From the NCBI GenBank assembly GCA_937912225.1, contig CALDOJ010000038.1, positions 17,408-81,407 on the forward strand: 64,000 bases of DNA. The letters are read 5' to 3'. Origin of the DNA: Candidatus Woesearchaeota archaeon (lineage in GTDB: Archaea; Nanobdellota; Nanobdellia; Woesearchaeales; GCA-2686295). The notes under the pieces were generated by a model. The model searched no databases, was not told the DNA's origin, and saw nothing but the letters and a program-made list of their open reading frames with translations. The translations under genes were made by a program, and so were the position numbers. Numbering within the stretch: position 1 is the first letter of the stretch; every line of letters begins with the position of its first letter. Shown here piece by piece: positions 1 to 21,478 of the stretch.

Positions 1-1
1 A

Positions 2-1039
2 ACTAAAAGTAAATCTTCTTATAAAAATATAGAAGGATTAATTTATAGAACTAAAGATGGATTAGTTGTAAATCCAAAAGCAGCAATTATTCTTGAATTA
101 GATAAGTTACCTTATCCAGATTATAACATGTTCAATCAAAAAATAAGAATTTATCCTTTAGTAACTAGTAGAGGGTGTCCATATAACTGTACTTATTGCT
201 CTGTTGGAGCTATTAGTGGACGAAGATGGAGATATCGTGATGCAGAGGATGTAATCAAAGAATTAAAACATGCTAAAAAGAAATATGGTATGAAAGAATT
301 TGATGTTATTGATGATAATTTTACTTTAAGAATGGACCGAGCAAAAGAAATATGTAGGTTAATAATTAAAAATAAATTAAATTTAAAATGGCATTTTCCA
401 AACGGGATTAGAGCAGATAGACTTGATGAAGAATTATTATCGCTTATGAAAAAATCTGGTTGTGTTTCGATTAATTTGGGTGTTGAGTCAGGAGTTGAAA
501 AAATATTTGATTCTATTCAAAAAGGTGAAAAATTACATAAGATTGTAACTGCAGTTAAATTAATTAAAAAAAGCGGCATAACTTTGAATGGATTTTTTAT
601 TTTAGGGCTTCAAGACAGTACTTACAAAGATGATTTAGAATCATTAAAATTTTCTCAAAAGTTAGGATTAGACAGTGCTATTTGGAACATTTTTGTTCCT
701 TATCCTGAAACACAAATGTATCGAGATGTAATGGCTGCAAAAAATATTACTTTTTTAAGAGATTGGAAAGAAGGTTTTCACTTTGGCGATAATGTAAAAA
801 TTGTTTTTGAAACAGACAAGTATAGTGCTGAAGAAAAAATTAAAATGTATTTTTTAGCAAATCTGAAATCAAAGAATTATGGTATGCTTGCAACAGAGGG
901 TAGTTTTATTAGAAGATTTTTCAGGTTATCAGGAGTAATTTTAAAACATGATTTTATTCGATTTCCTTATCACATAATAAATGCTTTATTTGCGTTCTAT
1001 AAATATCGTGTAAAAACTAATTTAGAAAATATTTTTTGA
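2..1039 (+). CDS. B12-binding/radical SAM domain protein, 5'-truncated at window edge (frame is open from nt 2)
   Basis: CxxxCxxC radical-SAM cluster motif (RGCPYNCTYC) near the first Met. The frame is open upstream to the window start with no stop. It is a paralog of the complete radical-SAM gene at 10972..12420. Confidence 0.7.
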   Translation, partial: TKSKSSYKNIEGLIYRTKDGLVVNPKAAIILELDKLPYPDYNMFNQKIRIYPLVTSRGCPYNCTYCSVGAISGRRWRYRDAEDVIKELKHAKKKYGMKEFDVIDDNFTLRMDRAKEICRLIIKNKLNLKWHFPNGIRADRLDEELLSLMKKSGCVSINLGVESGVEKIFDSIQKGEKLHKIVTAVKLIKKSGITLNGFFILGLQDSTYKDDLESLKFSQKLGLDSAIWNIFVPYPETQMYRDVMAAKNITFLRDWKEGFHFGDNVKIVFETDKYSAEEKIKMYFLANLKSKNYGMLATEGSFIRRFFRLSGVILKHDFIRFPYHIINALFAFYKYRVKTNLENIF

Positions 1040-1041
1040 TT

Positions 1042-18796: not shown

Positions 18797-19473
18797 GCAA
18801 AAAAATATTTATTGTAATTGCAGCATATAATGAAGAGAAATCAATAGTTAAAGTAATAAAGAACTTAAAGTCTCATGGTTACAAAAATATTGTTATTGTA
18901 GATGATGGTTCTTCTGATCAGACTTATAATTTAATTGATAAACAAGGAGTTTTTGCTTTAAAACATCCTATTAATAGAGGTCAAGGTGCATCTTTAAAGA
19001 CAGGAATTGATTTTGCACTTTTGAAAGGAGCAGATATAATTGTAACTTTTGATGCTGACGGTCAACATCATGCAGAAGATATTAAAAAATTAGTTGATCC
19101 AGTTTTAAAAGGTAAATGTGATGCTGCTCTTGGTTCAAGATTTTTACGAAAAGATTCAAACACTCCACCTATTAGAAAAATTCTTATTAGAGTTGGAATA
19201 TTAGTTGTTTGGTTTTTATATGGAATGAAATTAACTGATTCTCATAATGGATTTAGAGCTTTATCTAGATTTGCCGCTCAAAAAATAGATATAACATCTG
19301 ATCGAATGGAACACGCTTCTCAAATTGTTGAAGAAATTAATAAGAACAAAATTAAATATAAAGAAATTCCTGTAACCATCACTTATACTGATTATTCTAA
19401 ACAAAAAGGTCAAAGTAATTTTAATAGCGTTAAAATTGGTTTAAGAATGCTATTTAGAAAGCTTATGAATTAA
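18793..19473 (+). CDS. GT2 polyprenol-phosphate glycosyltransferase (ArnC/GtrB-like); true start probably the MSKKIF ATG at 18793 inside the track ORF 18745..19473
   Basis: IFIVIAAYNEE, IVIVDDGSSD and TFDADGQHH (DxD) motifs. The ATG overlaps the stop of the upstream SMR gene. Confidence 0.8.
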   Translation: MSKKIFIVIAAYNEEKSIVKVIKNLKSHGYKNIVIVDDGSSDQTYNLIDKQGVFALKHPINRGQGASLKTGIDFALLKGADIIVTFDADGQHHAEDIKKLVDPVLKGKCDAALGSRFLRKDSNTPPIRKILIRVGILVVWFLYGMKLTDSHNGFRALSRFAAQKIDITSDRMEHASQIVEEINKNKIKYKEIPVTITYTDYSKQKGQSNFNSVKIGLRMLFRKLMN

Positions 19474-20423
19474 TTATAGGCTTTGTATGTTGCTAAAATT
19501 GATTTCTTTAAAGAAATTTTAGGCGTCCATTTAAGAAGCTTCTGAGCTTTTTTATTACTTGCAACTAATGTTGGAGGATCACCTGCTCTTCGTCCTTTAT
19601 TCTTCTTAGGTACAGTGATATTAAGTGCTTTTTCAACTTCAGAAACCAGTTCTTTAACAGAAGTTCCAGAATTAGTTGCTAAATTAATTATTTCATTATT
19701 TGCTTTGTTTAAACTTTTTATATGAGCATCAACCAAATCTATAACATCAATATAATCTCTTATGCAAGTCCCGTCTCTTGTTGGATAATTTGTTCCAAAT
19801 ATTTGTAGTTCAGGTCTTTTGTTCATAACTACTTCCATTATTATTGGCAGAACATTTGTGGCTTCTGGATCAATATAATTTAATCCTCCATCGCCAATAA
19901 CATTAAAATATCTGAATATAGTATATTTTATTCCGTAAATCTTTGAAAACCACAGTATCATTTGTTCACAAATTCTTTTTGTTTCACCATAATAATTATT
20001 AGGTTCTAGTTCGTCTGTTTCAGTAACTGTTTTGTTATGTGGTTTGTAAACAGCTGCTGTTGAAGAATAAATTATTTTCTTAGTTTTGTTTTCATTCATG
20101 CATTTTAAAAGATTGGCAGTTCCAATAACATTATCAGAATATTTTTCAGGGTTTTGCATAGATTCTTCTACTGCTTTATAACCTGCAAAATGCATTACAA
20201 TTTCTGGTTTATGTTTTTGAAATACTTTACTTAATGATTTATAATTGGTTAAATCTAATTTGTAAAATTTAGCTTTTTTATTAACTAGTTTTTTTATTCC
20301 TTTAGAAAGATTGTCAACTACTATTACTTCGTGTTTTTTTGTTATTAATTCTTTTACGGCTATGCTTCCTATATACCCTGCACCACCTGTTACTAAACAT
20401 TTCATAGTTTTACCTCGTTTCAA
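19470..20423 (-). CDS. NAD-dependent sugar epimerase, UDP-glucose 4-epimerase (GalE)-like
   Basis: MKCLVTGGAGYIGSIAVKEL Rossmann motif and YxxxK (YGETK). Likely start is the internal MKCLV Met at about 20405. Confidence 0.7.
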   Translation of the reverse strand: MKRGKTMKCLVTGGAGYIGSIAVKELITKKHEVIVVDNLSKGIKKLVNKKAKFYKLDLTNYKSLSKVFQKHKPEIVMHFAGYKAVEESMQNPEKYSDNVIGTANLLKCMNENKTKKIIYSSTAAVYKPHNKTVTETDELEPNNYYGETKRICEQMILWFSKIYGIKYTIFRYFNVIGDGGLNYIDPEATNVLPIIMEVVMNKRPELQIFGTNYPTRDGTCIRDYIDVIDLVDAHIKSLNKANNEIINLATNSGTSVKELVSEVEKALNITVPKKNKGRRAGDPPTLVASNKKAQKLLKWTPKISLKKSILATYKAYN

Positions 20424-21478
20424 AAAAGTTTTTTTGCAAATAGCATTAGTTTTGGTTCTTTTATTAATGTTTTGAAAATCATTTCAATTGGTTTATCTCT
20501 ACTTCCTGAGCCAAGAACTTCTTTTAGTGACTCTTTGTTAAATGTGTTGATTAAGTCATCCCAATCTTTATTTGTGAATTTATTCATCATTTTTCGAATT
20601 TGATAATGTGTCCATAAACTTTTACCAACTTCTTTTCTCCAAAGAGAATCATAATTTTCTTTATTATTTATTGATTTAGTTAATGCTTTTGCTGCTAATA
20701 GTCCTGGAATTAGCCCTCCTCCAGTTGTATTTTTTATTTGAGCGGCAGCATCTCCTATTAAGAAAACATTTTTTTTTTGAGTTTTGAATTGGGGATTGTG
20801 TATTGGTATTATTCCGCTTTGCCACTCAACAACTTTTCCTTTGTATCTTTTTACAAAATCTCGAAATATTAATCCTGTATCTTTCTTTGCAGCAACTCCA
20901 ACTCTTAGAAGGTTATTTGATTCAGGCACTGCCCATGCATAAGTTCCTATATGTGGATAAAAATCTACTACGTTATCATTTTTTATTTTTATTAGTGCTT
21001 GTACTCCTTGTAAATGTTTTTCTTTTGAGAATGAATGTATTTTTCTTACTTTGCTTAATGGTCCGTCAGCCCCTATTAATATATTGGGATTAATTGTTTT
21101 AGTTCTTTTTGTTTTTAAATTCTTTATTTTATTTTTTTCAAAATATGTGGAGTTATATATTATGTCAACTCCATTATCTAATGCTTTTTCTTCAAAGTAT
21201 TGATCGAATTTATTTCGCCACACAATTATATTTGGTTTTTTGAAATGGATTTGAATAAATTTCTTGTTTGGGGCGAATATTCTTGTAGAATAAACTTTGT
21301 TTGCAATAAAATCTTTTTTTAGTTTTATGATTTCGTTTATTGTTTGGCTTAAAATTCCTGTACATTGTATTGGAGAACCTATTTTGGATTTTTGTTCGTA
21401 TAATGTTACTTCATTTTTTTTAGCTAAAAGCGAAGCAGTTTGACAACCGATTGGTCCGCCACCTATTATATTAATCAT
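20420..21478 (-). CDS. FAD-dependent oxidoreductase, geranylgeranyl reductase (GGR) family
   Basis: N-terminal FAD dinucleotide fold IIGGGPIGCQTASLLAKK..VTLYEQ, the GGR-family ..CTG.. segment, and 352 aa. It overlaps the epimerase gene by 4 nt. Confidence 0.65.
   Translation of the reverse strand: MINIIGGGPIGCQTASLLAKKNEVTLYEQKSKIGSPIQCTGILSQTINEIIKLKKDFIANKVYSTRIFAPNKKFIQIHFKKPNIIVWRNKFDQYFEEKALDNGVDIIYNSTYFEKNKIKNLKTKRTKTINPNILIGADGPLSKVRKIHSFSKEKHLQGVQALIKIKNDNVVDFYPHIGTYAWAVPESNNLLRVGVAAKKDTGLIFRDFVKRYKGKVVEWQSGIIPIHNPQFKTQKKNVFLIGDAAAQIKNTTGGGLIPGLLAAKALTKSINNKENYDSLWRKEVGKSLWTHYQIRKMMNKFTNKDWDDLINTFNKESLKEVLGSGSRDKPIEMIFKTLIKEPKLMLFAKKLF

What the first reader, a model, noticed from the sequence alone, without database searches (positions are those of the whole stretch)
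1..21478. 21-kb N-glycosylation (agl-like) island around aglB with unusually rich tailoring chemistry
aglB is surrounded by three GT4 and two GT2 transferases, two epimerases/dehydratases, three class I methyltransferases, two class B radical-SAM enzymes, a carbamoyltransferase, a flippase-like protein, an ArnT-like GT-C enzyme and a GGR-family reductase. Most are in short translationally coupled operons. Two heavily sequon-decorated surface proteins follow immediately downstream. The density and diversity of tailoring enzymes suggest a complex, possibly undescribed N-glycan structure.
Basis: partly seen in the sequence, partly recalled or inferred. Interest (0 to 1): 0.6.

Follow-up and report, generated by a model that had tools for sequence, protein, structure and literature searches.

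The report
AglB glycosylation island, uncultured DPANN archaeon
This is a real but fairly ordinary kind of gene cluster: an uncultured Woesearchaeota-type archaeon groups the enzyme that attaches sugars to proteins with about 20 sugar-building and sugar-decorating genes, and a few of these (a carbamoyltransferase and two B12 radical-SAM enzymes) hint at glycan decorations not yet reported in archaea. The claim that the neighbouring surface proteins are packed with attachment sites is wrong.

Summary
**Verdict: a real, uncharacterised member of a known kind of locus; interest moderate-low.**

- **Gene inventory: largely correct** (Pfam/NCBIfam). AglB has its catalytic motifs. Around it lie three GT4s, two GT2 polyprenyl-phosphate-sugar synthases, two SDR sugar enzymes (one scores as GalE), an O-carbamoyltransferase, a flippase-like protein, a GT-C enzyme, a GGR-family reductase and two class-B radical-SAM enzymes.
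- **Corrections.**
  - Only two class I methyltransferases lie in 1-21478.
  - The first radical-SAM gene is cut by the window edge.
  - The two downstream surface proteins are not sequon-rich: 1 sequon against 3.1 expected, and 7 against 6.9.
A DUF2304 (GacJ-like) protein, an ArnE/F-like flippase pair, DUF5989 and two small membrane proteins.
- **Source.** An uncultured DPANN (Woesearchaeota/Nanoarchaeota) archaeon. The best species-level relative has an AglB only 60% identical.
- **Conservation.** Across 80 related AglB loci a core recurs: DUF2304, PpgS-like GT2, GGR, ArnE/F-like pair and an S-layer-like protein. The carbamoyltransferase and radical-SAM genes are recurrent accessories.
- **Extent.** The island continues at least 9 kb left of the window into a nonulosonic-acid pathway.

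The parts
2..1039 (+). C-terminal 345 aa of a class-B (B12-binding) radical-SAM enzyme; the N-terminus lies off-window
   Evidence: The frame is open from base 2. Pfam Radical_SAM scores 80 bits. NCBIfam matches fall at positions ~200-390 of B12-rSAM models. The CxxxCxxC motif is at residue 59 of the fragment. The identical contig gives a 473-aa B12-binding + Radical_SAM protein.
1042..2232 (-). GT4 glycosyltransferase (a)
   Evidence: Glycos_transf_1 145 bits and Glyco_transf_4 56 bits. EX7E motif at 305. 4-bp overlap with the upstream GT4.
2229..3458 (-). GT4 glycosyltransferase (b)
   Evidence: Glycos_transf_1 113 bits. EX7E at 322.
3523..4275 (+). Class I SAM methyltransferase (a)
   Evidence: Methyltransf_11/31/25. 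61% identical homologue between GT4 genes next to AglB in L013.
4279..5427 (-). GT4 glycosyltransferase (c), Agl16-like over its full length
   Evidence: Glycos_transf_1 151 bits. NCBIfam Agl16 scores 89.7 bits, below its cutoff of 575. Conserved next to DUF2304 in 11 of 29 full-flank loci.
5424..5753 (-). DUF2304 small membrane protein (GacJ/Rv3632 family), predicted activator of the PpgS-like GT2
   Evidence: PF10066 86.9 bits against a cutoff of 25.5. Three hydrophobic helices. Most conserved AglB neighbour, 22 of 29 loci. Adjacent to the PpgS-like GT2 in L035, L050, L053 and L080, and one gap away in L077. Function of family members from bioRxiv 10.1101/180810.
5903..6892 (+). SDR NDP-sugar 4,6-dehydratase/epimerase-like enzyme
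   Evidence: Epimerase 151 bits and GDP_Man_Dehyd 153 bits. Best NCBIfam hits are CDP-/dTDP-glucose 4,6-dehydratase and LegB, all below cutoff.
6984..9995 (+). AglB oligosaccharyltransferase (STT3 family)
   Evidence: PF02516 163 bits. Aligns to PglB and STT3A. Motifs: D158 in DPYFYYR, D277-x-D279, WWDFG 628-632, candidate DK motif D694/K697.
10041..10967 (+). GT2 polyprenyl-phosphate glycosyltransferase (ArnC/GtrB type, two C-terminal TM helices)
   Evidence: Glycos_transf_2 120 bits. Full-length match to ArnC (E 1e-47) and GtrB sll0501 (E 4e-40) structures. DDGSxD and DAD motifs. Immediately downstream of AglB here and in L005, 73% identical.
10972..12420 (+). Class-B radical-SAM enzyme (HpnJ-like)
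   Evidence: B12-binding 42 bits + Radical_SAM 98 bits. HpnJ model 269 bits over its full length but below the 577.6 cutoff. CxxxCxxC at 214. Nearest structures are 9ccb and AprD4.
12383..13012 (+). Class I SAM methyltransferase (b), overlapping the radical-SAM gene by 38 bp
   Evidence: Methyltransf_11 76 bits. Similar MT-rSAM pairs sit next to AglB in L066 and L046.
12996..13895 (-). LPG_synthase_TM / 'flippase-like domain' membrane protein
   Evidence: PF03706 132.5 bits. TIGR00374 77.3 bits against a cutoff of 43.2. 4-bp overlap with the GT-C gene. Same pair in L005.
13892..15574 (-). GT-C glycosyltransferase (PMT_2/ArnT-like, GT39/GT83-type)
   Evidence: PMT_2 72 bits and PMT 48 bits. AF2 model has pLDDT 92.8. 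Foldseek hits: STT3/AglB/PglB TM 0.53-0.61, ArnT 0.54/0.56, also ALG9/12 and PMT. 131 homologues found; every source-supplied name among the 120 listed is archaeal, chiefly DPANN.
15651..16093 (+). Two small membrane ORFs (64 and 83 aa) heading the carbamoyltransferase cassette
   Evidence: No family hit. Both travel with the carbamoyltransferase in L008 and L013, and the 83-aa ORF also in L006, L029 and L060.
16103..17863 (+). O-carbamoyltransferase (NodU/CmcH/TobZ family)
   Evidence: Carbam_trans_N 275 bits + Carbam_trans_C 236 bits. PDB: 7xb6 E 1.5e-100, also GdmN, NovN and TobZ. Homologues 61-74% identical in 7-8 of 80 AglB loci, directly upstream of AglB in L006, L008 and L013.
17876..18037 (+). 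DUF5989 single-TM protein
   Evidence: PF19451 78.7 bits. Found in the same AglB loci as the carbamoyltransferase in L008, L029 and L060.
18094..18796 (+). Two ArnE/ArnF-like EamA half-transporters (18094-18462 and 18455-18796)
   Evidence: NCBIfam ArnE 35 and 40 bits, ArnF 38 bits, all below cutoff. Pfam EamA 47.7 bits for the second. Directly upstream of the PpgS-like GT2 in L005, L006, L013 and L053.
18793..19473 (+). GT2 polyprenyl-phosphate HexNAc/hexose synthase (PpgS/DPMS-like, 226 aa)
   Evidence: NCBIfam PpgS 197 bits over its full length, below the 370 cutoff; AglJ model 97 bits. DPMS structure E 3e-13. DDGSSD and DAD motifs. Present in 50 of 80 AglB loci.
19470..20423 (-). UDP-glucose (or UDP-GlcNAc) 4-epimerase GalE
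   Evidence: TIGR01179 321 bits against a cutoff of 262.
20420..21478 (-). Geranylgeranyl-reductase-family flavoprotein, candidate polyprenol/dolichol reductase
   Evidence: TIGR02032 153.7 bits against a cutoff of 158.8. Homologues within 10 kb of AglB in 34 of 80 loci.
21665..22936 (+). Signal-peptide, C-terminally anchored Ig-like surface protein (putative S-layer protein), sequon-poor
   Evidence: NF033506 'putative S-layer protein' 122 bits against a cutoff of 110. NPCBM_assoc, FixG_C and DUF4625 domains. 1 sequon against 3.1 expected. Homologues near AglB in 10 of 29 loci.
22989..25286 (+). Second membrane-anchored Ig-like surface protein, average sequon density
   Evidence: FixG_C and Big_9. 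7 sequons against 6.9 expected. Co-occurs with the first surface protein in 6 of 29 loci.

Best explanation
**What it is.** Bases 1-21478 are the right-hand two thirds of a protein-glycosylation island of at least 30 kb. The host is an uncultured DPANN (Woesearchaeota-type) archaeon.

**Proposed mechanism (inferred from family membership and gene adjacency; no step is shown biochemically).**
1. Sugar nucleotides are prepared by GalE, a 4,6-dehydratase-like SDR and an off-window nonulosonic-acid pathway.
2. One GT2 polyprenyl-phosphate glycosyltransferase starts a dolichol-phosphate-linked oligosaccharide. By adjacency this is the ArnC-type enzyme just downstream of aglB.
3. The three GT4 enzymes extend that oligosaccharide on the cytoplasmic face.
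4. The lipid-linked glycan is tailored by two SAM methyltransferases, two cobalamin-type radical-SAM enzymes and a membrane-associated O-carbamoyltransferase cassette.
5. The glycan is flipped. The candidate flippase is the LPG_synthase_TM-like protein.
6. AglB transfers it to Asn.
7. A second branch works like GacI/GacJ/GacK/GacL, ArnC/EF/T or AglD/R/S.
   - The PpgS-like GT2, helped by the DUF2304 protein, makes a dolichol-phosphate monosaccharide, probably a HexNAc fed by GalE.
   - The ArnE/F-like pair flips it.
   - The GT-C enzyme adds it outside the cell to the glycan or a protein.
8. The GGR-family reductase may saturate the polyprenol carrier.
For: **Enzyme identities and intact motifs**
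- Family assignments.
- AglB carries D158 (DPYF), D277xD279 and WWDFG.
- GT2 DDGSxD/DAD, GT4 EX7E and rSAM CxxxCxxC motifs are all present.
- The ArnC-type GT2 matches ArnC and GtrB structures over its full length, E 1e-47.
- The PpgS-like GT2 matches the PpgS model (197 bits) and the DPMS structure.
- The carbamoyltransferase matches TobZ, GdmN and NovN at E down to 1e-100.
- The GT-C model has pLDDT 92.8 and a GT-C fold shared with STT3, ArnT, ALG and PMT.

**Neighbourhood conservation in 80 species-level DPANN AglB loci**
- In the 29 loci with full flanks: DUF2304 22, PpgS-like GT2 16, ArnC-type GT2 14, GGR 11, ArnE/F 10.
- L005 (AglB 60% identical) has the same gene order minus the carbamoyltransferase cassette.
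- The GT-C gene lies divergent from ArnE-ArnE-PpgS in L005 and L006, and close upstream of the ArnE pair in L010.
- The carbamoyltransferase sits directly upstream of, and co-directional with, aglB in L006, L008 and L013.
- Class-B radical SAMs sit between GT4 genes (L068) or next to methyltransferases (L066, L046) beside aglB.

**Operon structure.** 4-bp overlaps and about 98% coding.

**Paradigms from the literature**
- GacI/GacJ(DUF2304)/GacK/GacL and PpgS/Rv3632: bioRxiv 10.1101/180810.
- AglD/AglR/AglS and the HVO_1517-1531 agl cluster: PMC3871713.

**Off-window extension.** NeuB (478 bits against a cutoff of 400), a PseF-like cytidylyltransferase, a NeuC-like 2-epimerase, a formyltransferase and a TagF-like protein lie on the identical contig.
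Against: - There are no glycan, lipid or expression data for this organism or any Woesearchaeote.
- No Wzx/AglR-type flippase and no AglH-type phosphosugar transferase lies in the island or elsewhere in the window.
- Which GT2 initiates and which feeds the GT-C is inferred from adjacency only. The PpgS-like GT2 with DUF2304 is the more conserved AglB neighbour, so it could equally be the initiator.
- The GT-C gene is within 10 kb of AglB in only 4 of 29 full-flank loci.
- Most specific NCBIfam models are hit below their curated cutoffs: HpnJ, PpgS, ArnE/F, Agl16, AglJ, NodU. These are family-level assignments, not orthology.
- The adjacent surface proteins are not sequon-enriched, so they give no support as preferred targets.
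Confidence: 0.7

Rival explanations
1. This is a mixed surface-glycoconjugate locus. AglB and a few glycosyltransferases make the N-glycan. The GT2(PpgS-like)/DUF2304/ArnE-F/GT-C branch instead performs protein O-glycosylation (PMT-like) or decorates a lipid or a teichoic-acid-like polymer. The carbamoyltransferase and the off-window TagF-like enzyme may belong to that second function as well.
For: - The GT-C belongs to Pfam PMT/PMT_2, families that include protein O-mannosyltransferases and lipid A ArnT.
- Foldseek cannot separate OST, ArnT, ALG and PMT relatives of the model.
- A Glyphos_transf (TagF-like) protein lies just off-window.
- The bacterial paradigms (GacL, Rv3779, ArnT) modify polysaccharide or lipid, not N-glycans.
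- The first surface protein is S/T-rich (17.7%) but sequon-poor.
Against: - The branch is physically linked to aglB across many genomes.
- In Haloferax the same logic (AglD/AglR/AglS) does finish an N-glycan.
- No independent polymer-export or ligase genes lie in the island.
Confidence: 0.2
2. The class-B radical-SAM enzymes, the methyltransferases and the GGR-family reductase act on the isoprenoid carrier or on membrane lipids, for example by chain methylation or saturation. They do not act on the sugars, so the glycan itself is less exotic than the gene list suggests.
For: - The nearest curated families of the radical SAMs include lipid-directed enzymes: HpnJ, HpnR and the 'lipid biosynthesis B12-binding/radical SAM protein'.
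- A GGR-family gene is a conserved AglB neighbour, in 34 of 80 loci.
Against: - The radical-SAM genes are embedded in glycosyltransferase operons: GT2-rSAM-MT here and in L005, GT4-rSAM-GT4 in L068.
- The nearest solved homologue with a named function is AprD4, a sugar diol-dehydratase.
- All lipid-family scores are far below their cutoffs.
Confidence: 0.15
3. This is a chance juxtaposition of unrelated genes, with no functional island.
For: None beyond the generic promiscuity of the GT, MT and SDR families.
Against: - Twenty-two consecutive genes (19 with assigned families plus three small membrane ORFs) fit glycan or polyprenol chemistry, at about 98% coding density.
- The order is conserved in L005, and modules recur next to AglB in dozens of genomes.
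- Island GC is lower, 0.268 against 0.298 for the rest of the window.
Confidence: 0.02

Closest known systems
Haloferax volcanii agl gene island (HVO_1517-HVO_1531: aglJ...aglB...aglM) with AglD/AglR/AglS
   Same: - aglB is clustered with glycosyltransferases, a SAM methyltransferase and sugar-nucleotide enzymes.
- Assembly is on dolichol phosphate and is started by a GT2.
- A last sugar is delivered from a separate Dol-P-monosaccharide by a membrane transferase outside the cell (PMC3871713).
   Different: - No Wzx/AglR-type flippase here. An LPG_synthase_TM protein and an ArnE/F-like pair are present instead.
- Extra DUF2304 partner, O-carbamoyltransferase cassette, two class-B radical SAMs, a GGR-family gene and an adjoining nonulosonic-acid pathway.
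- None of the proteins reaches an Agl equivalog cutoff.
- The organism is an uncultured DPANN archaeon.
Streptococcus pyogenes GacI/GacJ/GacK/GacL and M. tuberculosis PpgS/Rv3632/Rv3779 side-chain systems
   Same: A GT2 polyprenyl-P-HexNAc synthase, a DUF2304 activator, a flippase and a GT-C transferase. GalE is encoded alongside here. (bioRxiv 10.1101/180810.)
   Different: - The acceptor in bacteria is a cell-wall polysaccharide. Here it is unknown, presumed to be the N-glycan or a protein.
- The flippase is ArnE/F-like rather than Wzx-like.
- In this window DUF2304 is separated from its GT2 by 13 kb, though the two are adjacent in relatives.
ArnC/ArnE/ArnF/ArnT lipid A aminoarabinose pathway
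   Same: - An ArnC-type GT2 (E 1e-47 to ArnC structures).
- Two small EamA-type half-transporters.
- A PMT_2-family GT-C.
   Different: - No lipid A in archaea.
- Here the ArnE/F-like pair sits with the other (PpgS-like) GT2.
- ArnE/F models are hit below their cutoffs.
- The formyltransferase is off-window, inside a nonulosonic-acid cluster.
TobZ/NodU/NovN/GdmN O-carbamoyltransferases
   Same: Two-domain Kae1-like + YrdC-like architecture with strong full-length similarity.
   Different: - The known substrates are antibiotics and Nod factors.
- Here the gene is flanked by small membrane proteins (DUF5989 and two unassigned ORFs) and embedded in aglB islands. That implies a lipid-linked or protein-linked glycan substrate not yet documented in the archaeal literature searched.

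Membership tests
aglB-centred archaeal N-glycosylation (agl) gene cluster | An AglB/STT3 oligosaccharyltransferase with catalytic acidic residues and a WWDxG motif | tested here: met
   PF02516 163 bits. D158 (DPYF), D277xD279 and WWDFG 628-632.
aglB-centred archaeal N-glycosylation (agl) gene cluster | An enzyme that charges the dolichol phosphate carrier, plus soluble glycosyltransferases for elongation, encoded next to aglB | tested here: met
   Two GT2 polyprenyl-P glycosyltransferase homologues and three GT4 with EX7E motifs. 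Which GT2 initiates is not resolved.
aglB-centred archaeal N-glycosylation (agl) gene cluster | A flippase for the lipid-linked glycan | tested here: inconclusive
   No Wzx/AglR-like protein. An LPG_synthase_TM 'flippase-like' protein (TIGR00374 77 bits against a cutoff of 43) and an ArnE/F-like pair (below cutoffs) are the candidates.
aglB-centred archaeal N-glycosylation (agl) gene cluster | Demonstrated contribution of the genes to an Asn-linked glycan (deletion or mass spectrometry) | not testable with these tools
   Uncultured organism. No structural or genetic data turned up in the literature searches.
Polyprenyl-P-sugar side-branch systems (GacI/J/K/L, PpgS/Rv3632/Rv3779, ArnC/EF/T, AglD/R/S) | A GT2 polyprenyl-monophosphate glycose synthase | tested here: met
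   PpgS model 197 bits over its full length (below the 370 equivalog cutoff), DPMS structure E 3e-13, DDGSSD/DAD motifs.
Polyprenyl-P-sugar side-branch systems (GacI/J/K/L, PpgS/Rv3632/Rv3779, ArnC/EF/T, AglD/R/S) | A DUF2304 (GacJ/Rv3632) membrane partner | tested here: met
   PF10066 86.9 bits against a cutoff of 25.5. Adjacent to the PpgS-like GT2 in L035, L050, L053 and L080, and one gap away in L077. Not adjacent in this window.
Polyprenyl-P-sugar side-branch systems (GacI/J/K/L, PpgS/Rv3632/Rv3779, ArnC/EF/T, AglD/R/S) | A GT-C fold transferase that uses the flipped donor | tested here: met
   PMT_2 72 bits. AF2 model pLDDT 92.8. Foldseek matches to ArnT, STT3, ALG and PMT at probability 1.0. 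Donor and acceptor not testable.
NodU/CmcH/TobZ O-carbamoyltransferase family | Carbam_trans_N (Kae1-like) plus Carbam_trans_C (YrdC-like) domains over the full length | tested here: met
   275 and 236 bits. E 1.5e-100 to 7xb6 and about 2e-77 to TobZ. The NodU equivalog cutoff is not reached (165 against 1000), so it is not a NodU orthologue.
Class B (cobalamin-binding) radical SAM enzymes | An N-terminal B12-binding domain plus a radical-SAM core with CxxxCxxC | tested here: met
   10972-12420: PF02310 42 bits + PF04055 98 bits, with C214xxxCxxC. First gene: core in the window, B12 domain on the identical off-window sequence.
HpnJ (hopanoid-associated radical SAM) equivalog | Score at or above the curated cutoff of TIGR03471 | tested here: not met
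   269 bits against a cutoff of 577.6. It is related, not an orthologue.
Sequon-rich archaeal S-layer glycoprotein | A secreted, anchored surface protein with N-X-S/T density above expectation | tested here: not met
   - The surface-protein identity is supported: NF033506 122 bits against a cutoff of 110, and hydrophobic N- and C-terminal segments consistent with a signal peptide and membrane anchor.
- Sequons: 1 against 3.1 expected, and 7 against 6.9 expected.
- Family median is 0.23 sequons per 100 aa.

The most novel reading that the evidence does not exclude
Woesearchaeales N-glycans, or their dolichol-linked precursors, may carry modifications never documented on archaeal N-glycans.
- An O-carbamoyl group, installed at the membrane by a TobZ/NodU-type enzyme working with DUF5989 and two other small membrane proteins.
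- A sugar that is C-methylated or otherwise rearranged by cobalamin-type radical-SAM enzymes.
- Possibly an N-formylated nonulosonic acid.

These would be built by a lineage-typical two-carrier pathway: aglB + PpgS-like GT2/DUF2304 + ArnE/F-like flippase + GT-C + GGR. For host-dependent DPANN cells, such a variable glycan coat could set partner specificity.
Probability: 0.3. Interest if true: 0.55.

Novelty: new member of a known kind. Interest (0 to 1): 0.35.

Why it matters
- No N-glycan structure or Agl pathway is known for any Woesearchaeote. S-layer and glycan biology of DPANN archaea is almost uncharted (bioRxiv 10.1101/2023.10.27.564410). These cells live attached to hosts, so their surface glycans are plausible recognition determinants.
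- The locus offers a concrete, testable parts list.
  - A conserved core next to aglB: DUF2304, PpgS-like GT2, ArnE/F-like pair, GGR and an S-layer-like protein.
  - Swappable accessories: the carbamoyltransferase cassette, class-B radical SAMs and a nonulosonic-acid pathway.
- Confirmation of carbamoylated or radical-SAM-modified N-glycans would extend the known chemistry of protein glycosylation.
- As it stands, this is a well-formed prediction from homology and synteny, not a surprise to specialists. aglB-centred, highly variable glycosylation islands are well known.

Tried and rejected
- **GT-C against solved structures.** phmmer of the GT-C against PDB sequences found nothing at E ≤ 1. 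I had to go through an AF2 model and Foldseek instead. That placed it in the GT-C fold but could not tell OST-like, ArnT-like and PMT-like apart.
- **Small membrane ORFs.** NCBIfam and Pfam gave no family for the 64-aa and 83-aa ORFs. My idea that the 83-aa protein is SxtJ-like is therefore unsupported and dropped.
- **Dolichol reductase analogy.** The literature search for Haloferax HVO_1799 returned nothing. The proposed role of the GGR-family gene rests on my recollection and on synteny only.
- **Sequon enrichment.** Tested by shuffling and by comparison with 58 window ORFs, then rejected. Homologues were checked too.
- **Third methyltransferase.** Searched for among ORFs of 40 aa or more across 15400-25400 and among all ORFs of 90 aa or more in the interval. 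None was found inside 1-21478.
- **Further glycosylation genes.** The rest of the window (21.5-64 kb) holds only housekeeping genes, a pilus/archaellum-type ATPase and glycogen-metabolism genes.
- **Earlier guess at the source.** I considered that the window might be a methanogen, given its low GC. The AglB relatives rejected this.
- **Prior links in the literature.** Searches for carbamoyltransferase or radical SAM together with AglB or N-glycans found no relevant paper in the held library.
- **Limit on reach.** I could not look beyond about 9 kb left of the window, because only window-encoded proteins can be used for contig look-ups.

Full report
**What is in the interval**

ORF listing and Pfam/NCBIfam scans show that bases 1-21478 are about 98% coding. 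Every ORF of 90 aa or more belongs to a glycan- or polyprenol-related family. In order:

| Coordinates | Strand | Assignment |
|---|---|---|
| 2-1039 | + | Class-B radical SAM, N-terminus off-window |
| 1042-2232 | − | GT4 |
| 2229-3458 | − | GT4 |
| 3523-4275 | + | Class I methyltransferase |
| 4279-5427 | − | GT4 |
| 5424-5753 | − | DUF2304 |
| 5903-6892 | + | SDR 4,6-dehydratase-like |
| 6984-9995 | + | AglB |
| 10041-10967 | + | ArnC/GtrB-type GT2 |
| 10972-12420 | + | B12-binding radical SAM |
| 12383-13012 | + | Class I methyltransferase |
| 12996-13895 | − | LPG_synthase_TM 'flippase-like' protein |
| 13892-15574 | − | PMT_2 GT-C |
| 15651-16093 | + | Two small membrane ORFs |
| 16103-17863 | + | Carbamoyltransferase |
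| 17876-18037 | + | DUF5989 |
| 18094-18796 | + | Two ArnE/F-like EamA half-transporters |
| 18793-19473 | + | PpgS/DPMS-like GT2 |
| 19470-20423 | − | GalE (321 bits against a cutoff of 262) |
| 20420-21478 | − | GGR-family flavoprotein |

Catalytic motifs are intact.
- AglB has D158 in DPYFYYR, D277-x-D279, WWDFG at 628-632 and a candidate DK motif.
- Both GT2s have DDGSxD and DAD. The GT4s have EX7E. Both radical SAMs have CxxxCxxC.

Gene junctions are mostly 4-bp overlaps or gaps under 100 bp. This supports five or six short operons.

**Corrections to the observation**

- Only two class I methyltransferases lie in the interval. A third is at 30766-31347, among housekeeping genes.
- The first radical-SAM gene runs off the window. 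Its frame is open from base 2. A metagenome contig identical to the window over the overlap gives a 473-aa B12-binding + Radical_SAM protein. 'Two class-B radical SAMs' is therefore right.
- The statement that two heavily sequon-decorated surface proteins follow is wrong.
  - 21665-22936 has 1 N-X-S/T against 3.1±1.5 expected from 500 shuffles.
  - 22989-25286 has 7 against 6.9±2.3.
  - The 58 ORFs kept from the window average 0.54 sequons per 100 aa.
- The two proteins are nonetheless surface proteins.
  - Both have hydrophobic N-terminal segments consistent with signal peptides, Ig-like domains and membrane anchors.
  - The first passes NCBIfam's 'putative S-layer protein' model, 122 bits against a cutoff of 110.
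  - Its homologues elsewhere are consistently sequon-poor, median 0.23 per 100 aa.
  - They carry one semi-conserved site, present in 8 of 19 aligned sequences.

**Source and extent**

- The AglB sequence occurs exactly on ENA aquatic-metagenome contigs.
- In one-genome-per-species GTDB contigs the best relatives are Nanoarchaeota/Woesearchaeota MAGs, with at most 60% AglB identity.
- An intron-containing tRNA fits an archaeal origin.
- The identical contig shows that the island continues at least 9 kb to the left of the window. That stretch holds:
  - a TagF-like Glyphos_transf protein and an AsnC-type regulator;
  - a nonulosonic-acid pathway, with a PseF-like cytidylyltransferase, a GFO oxidoreductase, an aminotransferase, NeuB (478 bits against a cutoff of 400), a PIG-L deacetylase, an ArnA-N-like formyltransferase and a NeuC-like 2-epimerase.
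- Island GC is 0.268, and 0.264 for the off-window part, against 0.298 for the rest of the window.
- To the right the island ends at the two surface proteins and the tRNA. Housekeeping genes follow.

**Conservation**

I compared the window proteins with 80 related AglB loci, of which 29 have at least 8 kb on both sides.

| Gene near AglB | Full-flank loci (of 29) | All loci (of 80) |
|---|---|---|
| DUF2304 | 22 | 45 |
| PpgS-like GT2 | 16 | 50 |
| GalE-like SDR | 16 | 30 |
| ArnC-type GT2 | 14 | 24 |
| GGR | 11 | 34 |
| GT4 (c) | 11 | 15 |
| ArnE/F pair | 10 | 14-15 |
| S-layer-like protein | 10 | 21 |
| GT-C | 4 | 6 (6-9) |
| Carbamoyltransferase | 3 | 7 (7-8) |
| Class-B radical SAMs | 2-3 each | 4-6 each (up to 10 by tblastn) |

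The single figures in the all-loci column are best-hit ORF counts; the parenthetical ranges also take in the tblastn counts.

- L005 (AglB 60% identical) has the same order as the window except that it lacks the carbamoyltransferase cassette.
- That cassette lies directly upstream of, and co-directional with, aglB in L006, L008 and L013.
- The GT-C gene is divergent from ArnE-ArnE-PpgS in L005 and L006, and close upstream of the ArnE pair in L010. DUF2304 is adjacent to the PpgS-like GT2 in L035, L050, L053 and L080, and one gap away in L077.
- Class-B radical SAMs sit between GT4 genes (L068) or beside MT_b-like methyltransferases (L066, L046) next to aglB.
- The locus type is therefore common in the lineage, with a stable core and swappable accessories. 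None of these loci is characterised.

**Mechanism (inferred)**

- The ArnC-type GT2 matches ArnC and GtrB structures end to end, E 1e-47.
- The PpgS-like GT2 matches the PpgS model (197 bits) and the archaeal DPMS structure.
- Both are thus polyprenyl-monophosphate glycose synthases.
- From adjacency, I propose that one (aglB-adjacent, ArnC-type) starts the dolichol-phosphate-linked oligosaccharide. The three GT4s extend it. The methyltransferases, radical SAMs and carbamoyltransferase tailor it.
- The LPG_synthase_TM-like protein is the candidate flippase, and AglB transfers the glycan.
- The other GT2, with DUF2304, the ArnE/F-like pair and the GT-C, reproduces a known logic. That logic is seen in GacI/GacJ/GacK/GacL, in PpgS/Rv3632/Rv3779 (bioRxiv 10.1101/180810) and in Haloferax AglD/AglR/AglS (PMC3871713). 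A lipid-phosphate monosaccharide is flipped and added outside the cell.
- GalE suggests the donor is a Gal or GalNAc epimer.
- The GT-C model is confident (pLDDT 92.8) and has a GT-C fold shared with STT3/AglB/PglB, ArnT, ALG9/12 and PMT. This cannot reveal the acceptor.
- The GGR-family gene may reduce the polyprenol carrier. That is an inference from synteny and from my recollection of a Haloferax precedent that I could not retrieve.

**Rivals**

- The lipid-monosaccharide branch, the TagF-like enzyme and perhaps the carbamoyltransferase could serve O-glycosylation or another surface polymer. The PMT family includes protein O-mannosyltransferases. The first surface protein is S/T-rich and sequon-poor.
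- The radical SAMs, methyltransferases and GGR could act on isoprenoid chains, since lipid-directed families are among their nearest curated relatives. Their position inside glycosyltransferase operons argues against this.
- Chance juxtaposition is excluded by synteny.

**Comparison and novelty**

- aglB-centred, highly variable glycosylation islands are well established in Archaea (PMC3871713; PMC11407970). This is another one, in an unstudied lineage.
- Three things are not described in the literature I could search:
  - a carbamoyltransferase cassette inside aglB islands;
  - class-B radical SAMs inside aglB islands;
  - the DUF2304 / ArnE-F-like / PpgS-like core next to aglB in DPANN.
- These are predictions from homology and neighbourhood, with most specific family cutoffs not reached.
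- I rate it a new member of a known kind, interest 0.35.
- The most novel admissible reading is carbamoylated and radical-SAM-modified N-glycans in host-dependent archaea. I give it a probability of about 0.3.

Noticed in passing
off-window, L085:12233-21191 (about 9 kb immediately left of window base 1; identical contig): The island continues into a nonulosonic-acid (legionaminic/pseudaminic-type) pathway. It holds NeuB (478 bits against a cutoff of 400), a PseF-like cytidylyltransferase, a NeuC-like 2-epimerase, a PIG-L deacetylase, a class-III aminotransferase, a GFO oxidoreductase and an ArnA-N-like formyltransferase. A TagF-like Glyphos_transf protein and an AsnC regulator are also there.
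   Followed up: partly
window 25324-25450 (+): Intron-containing tRNA, 127 nt, Rfam tRNA 40.8 bits. ARAGORN did not call it. It marks the right end of the island.
   Followed up: no
window 21665-22936 and homologues in L023, L038, L041, L045, L050, L051, L061: The S-layer-like protein family is consistently sequon-poor. It keeps one semi-conserved N-X-S/T at the same alignment column in 8 of 19 sequences ('ENVTS' in the window), possibly a single conserved glycosite.
   Followed up: partly
window 6984-9995 (AglB residues 70-158 and 628-632): AglB has about 90 residues between the first TM helix and the catalytic DPYF aspartate, far longer than the ~20 in PglB. It carries WWDFG instead of the canonical WWDYG.
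   Followed up: no
window 57989-62609 (+): A glycogen-metabolism gene set in a DPANN genome. It comprises a GT4/GT5-like synthase, a GH57 enzyme, and a Pfam Glycogen_syn (PF05693) protein scoring 521 bits; from my own knowledge this is the GT3 family typical of eukaryotic glycogen synthases. That last protein does not match bacterial GlgA models well.
   Followed up: no
window 36011-40514 (-): A 762-aa FlaI/TadA-like secretion ATPase (T2SSE; NCBIfam FlaI 110 bits, below cutoff) overlaps a 741-aa ORF with no family hit. Three further unassigned ORFs lie at 41736-43502. This may be a pilus or archaellum-like surface-filament locus.
   Followed up: no
window 27573-29462: Two genes lie just right of the island. 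One is a GDSL hydrolase with one predicted N-terminal TM segment (27573-28679). The other is a Peptidase_M15_4 (D-Ala-D-Ala carboxypeptidase family) protein (28725-29462) with the third-highest sequon density in the window, 5 in 245 aa. A peptidoglycan-type peptidase in an archaeon may relate to interaction with bacterial hosts or prey.
   Followed up: no
window 43749-46737 (+): Two adjacent class-II Asp/Asn-type aminoacyl-tRNA synthetase paralogues, tRNA-synt_2 at 381 and 227 bits.
   Followed up: no
window 1-21478 vs 21479-64000: The island has lower GC (0.268, minimum 0.232 at 12-14 kb) than the rest of the window (0.298). This is usual for variable glycan loci.
   Followed up: partly
L068:5616-9276, L066:6232-8328, L046:1944-5872: In other Woesearchaeales AglB islands, class-B radical-SAM genes sit between GT4 genes or next to MT_b-like methyltransferases. 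This suggests a recurrent rSAM + methyltransferase glycan-tailoring pair.
   Followed up: partly
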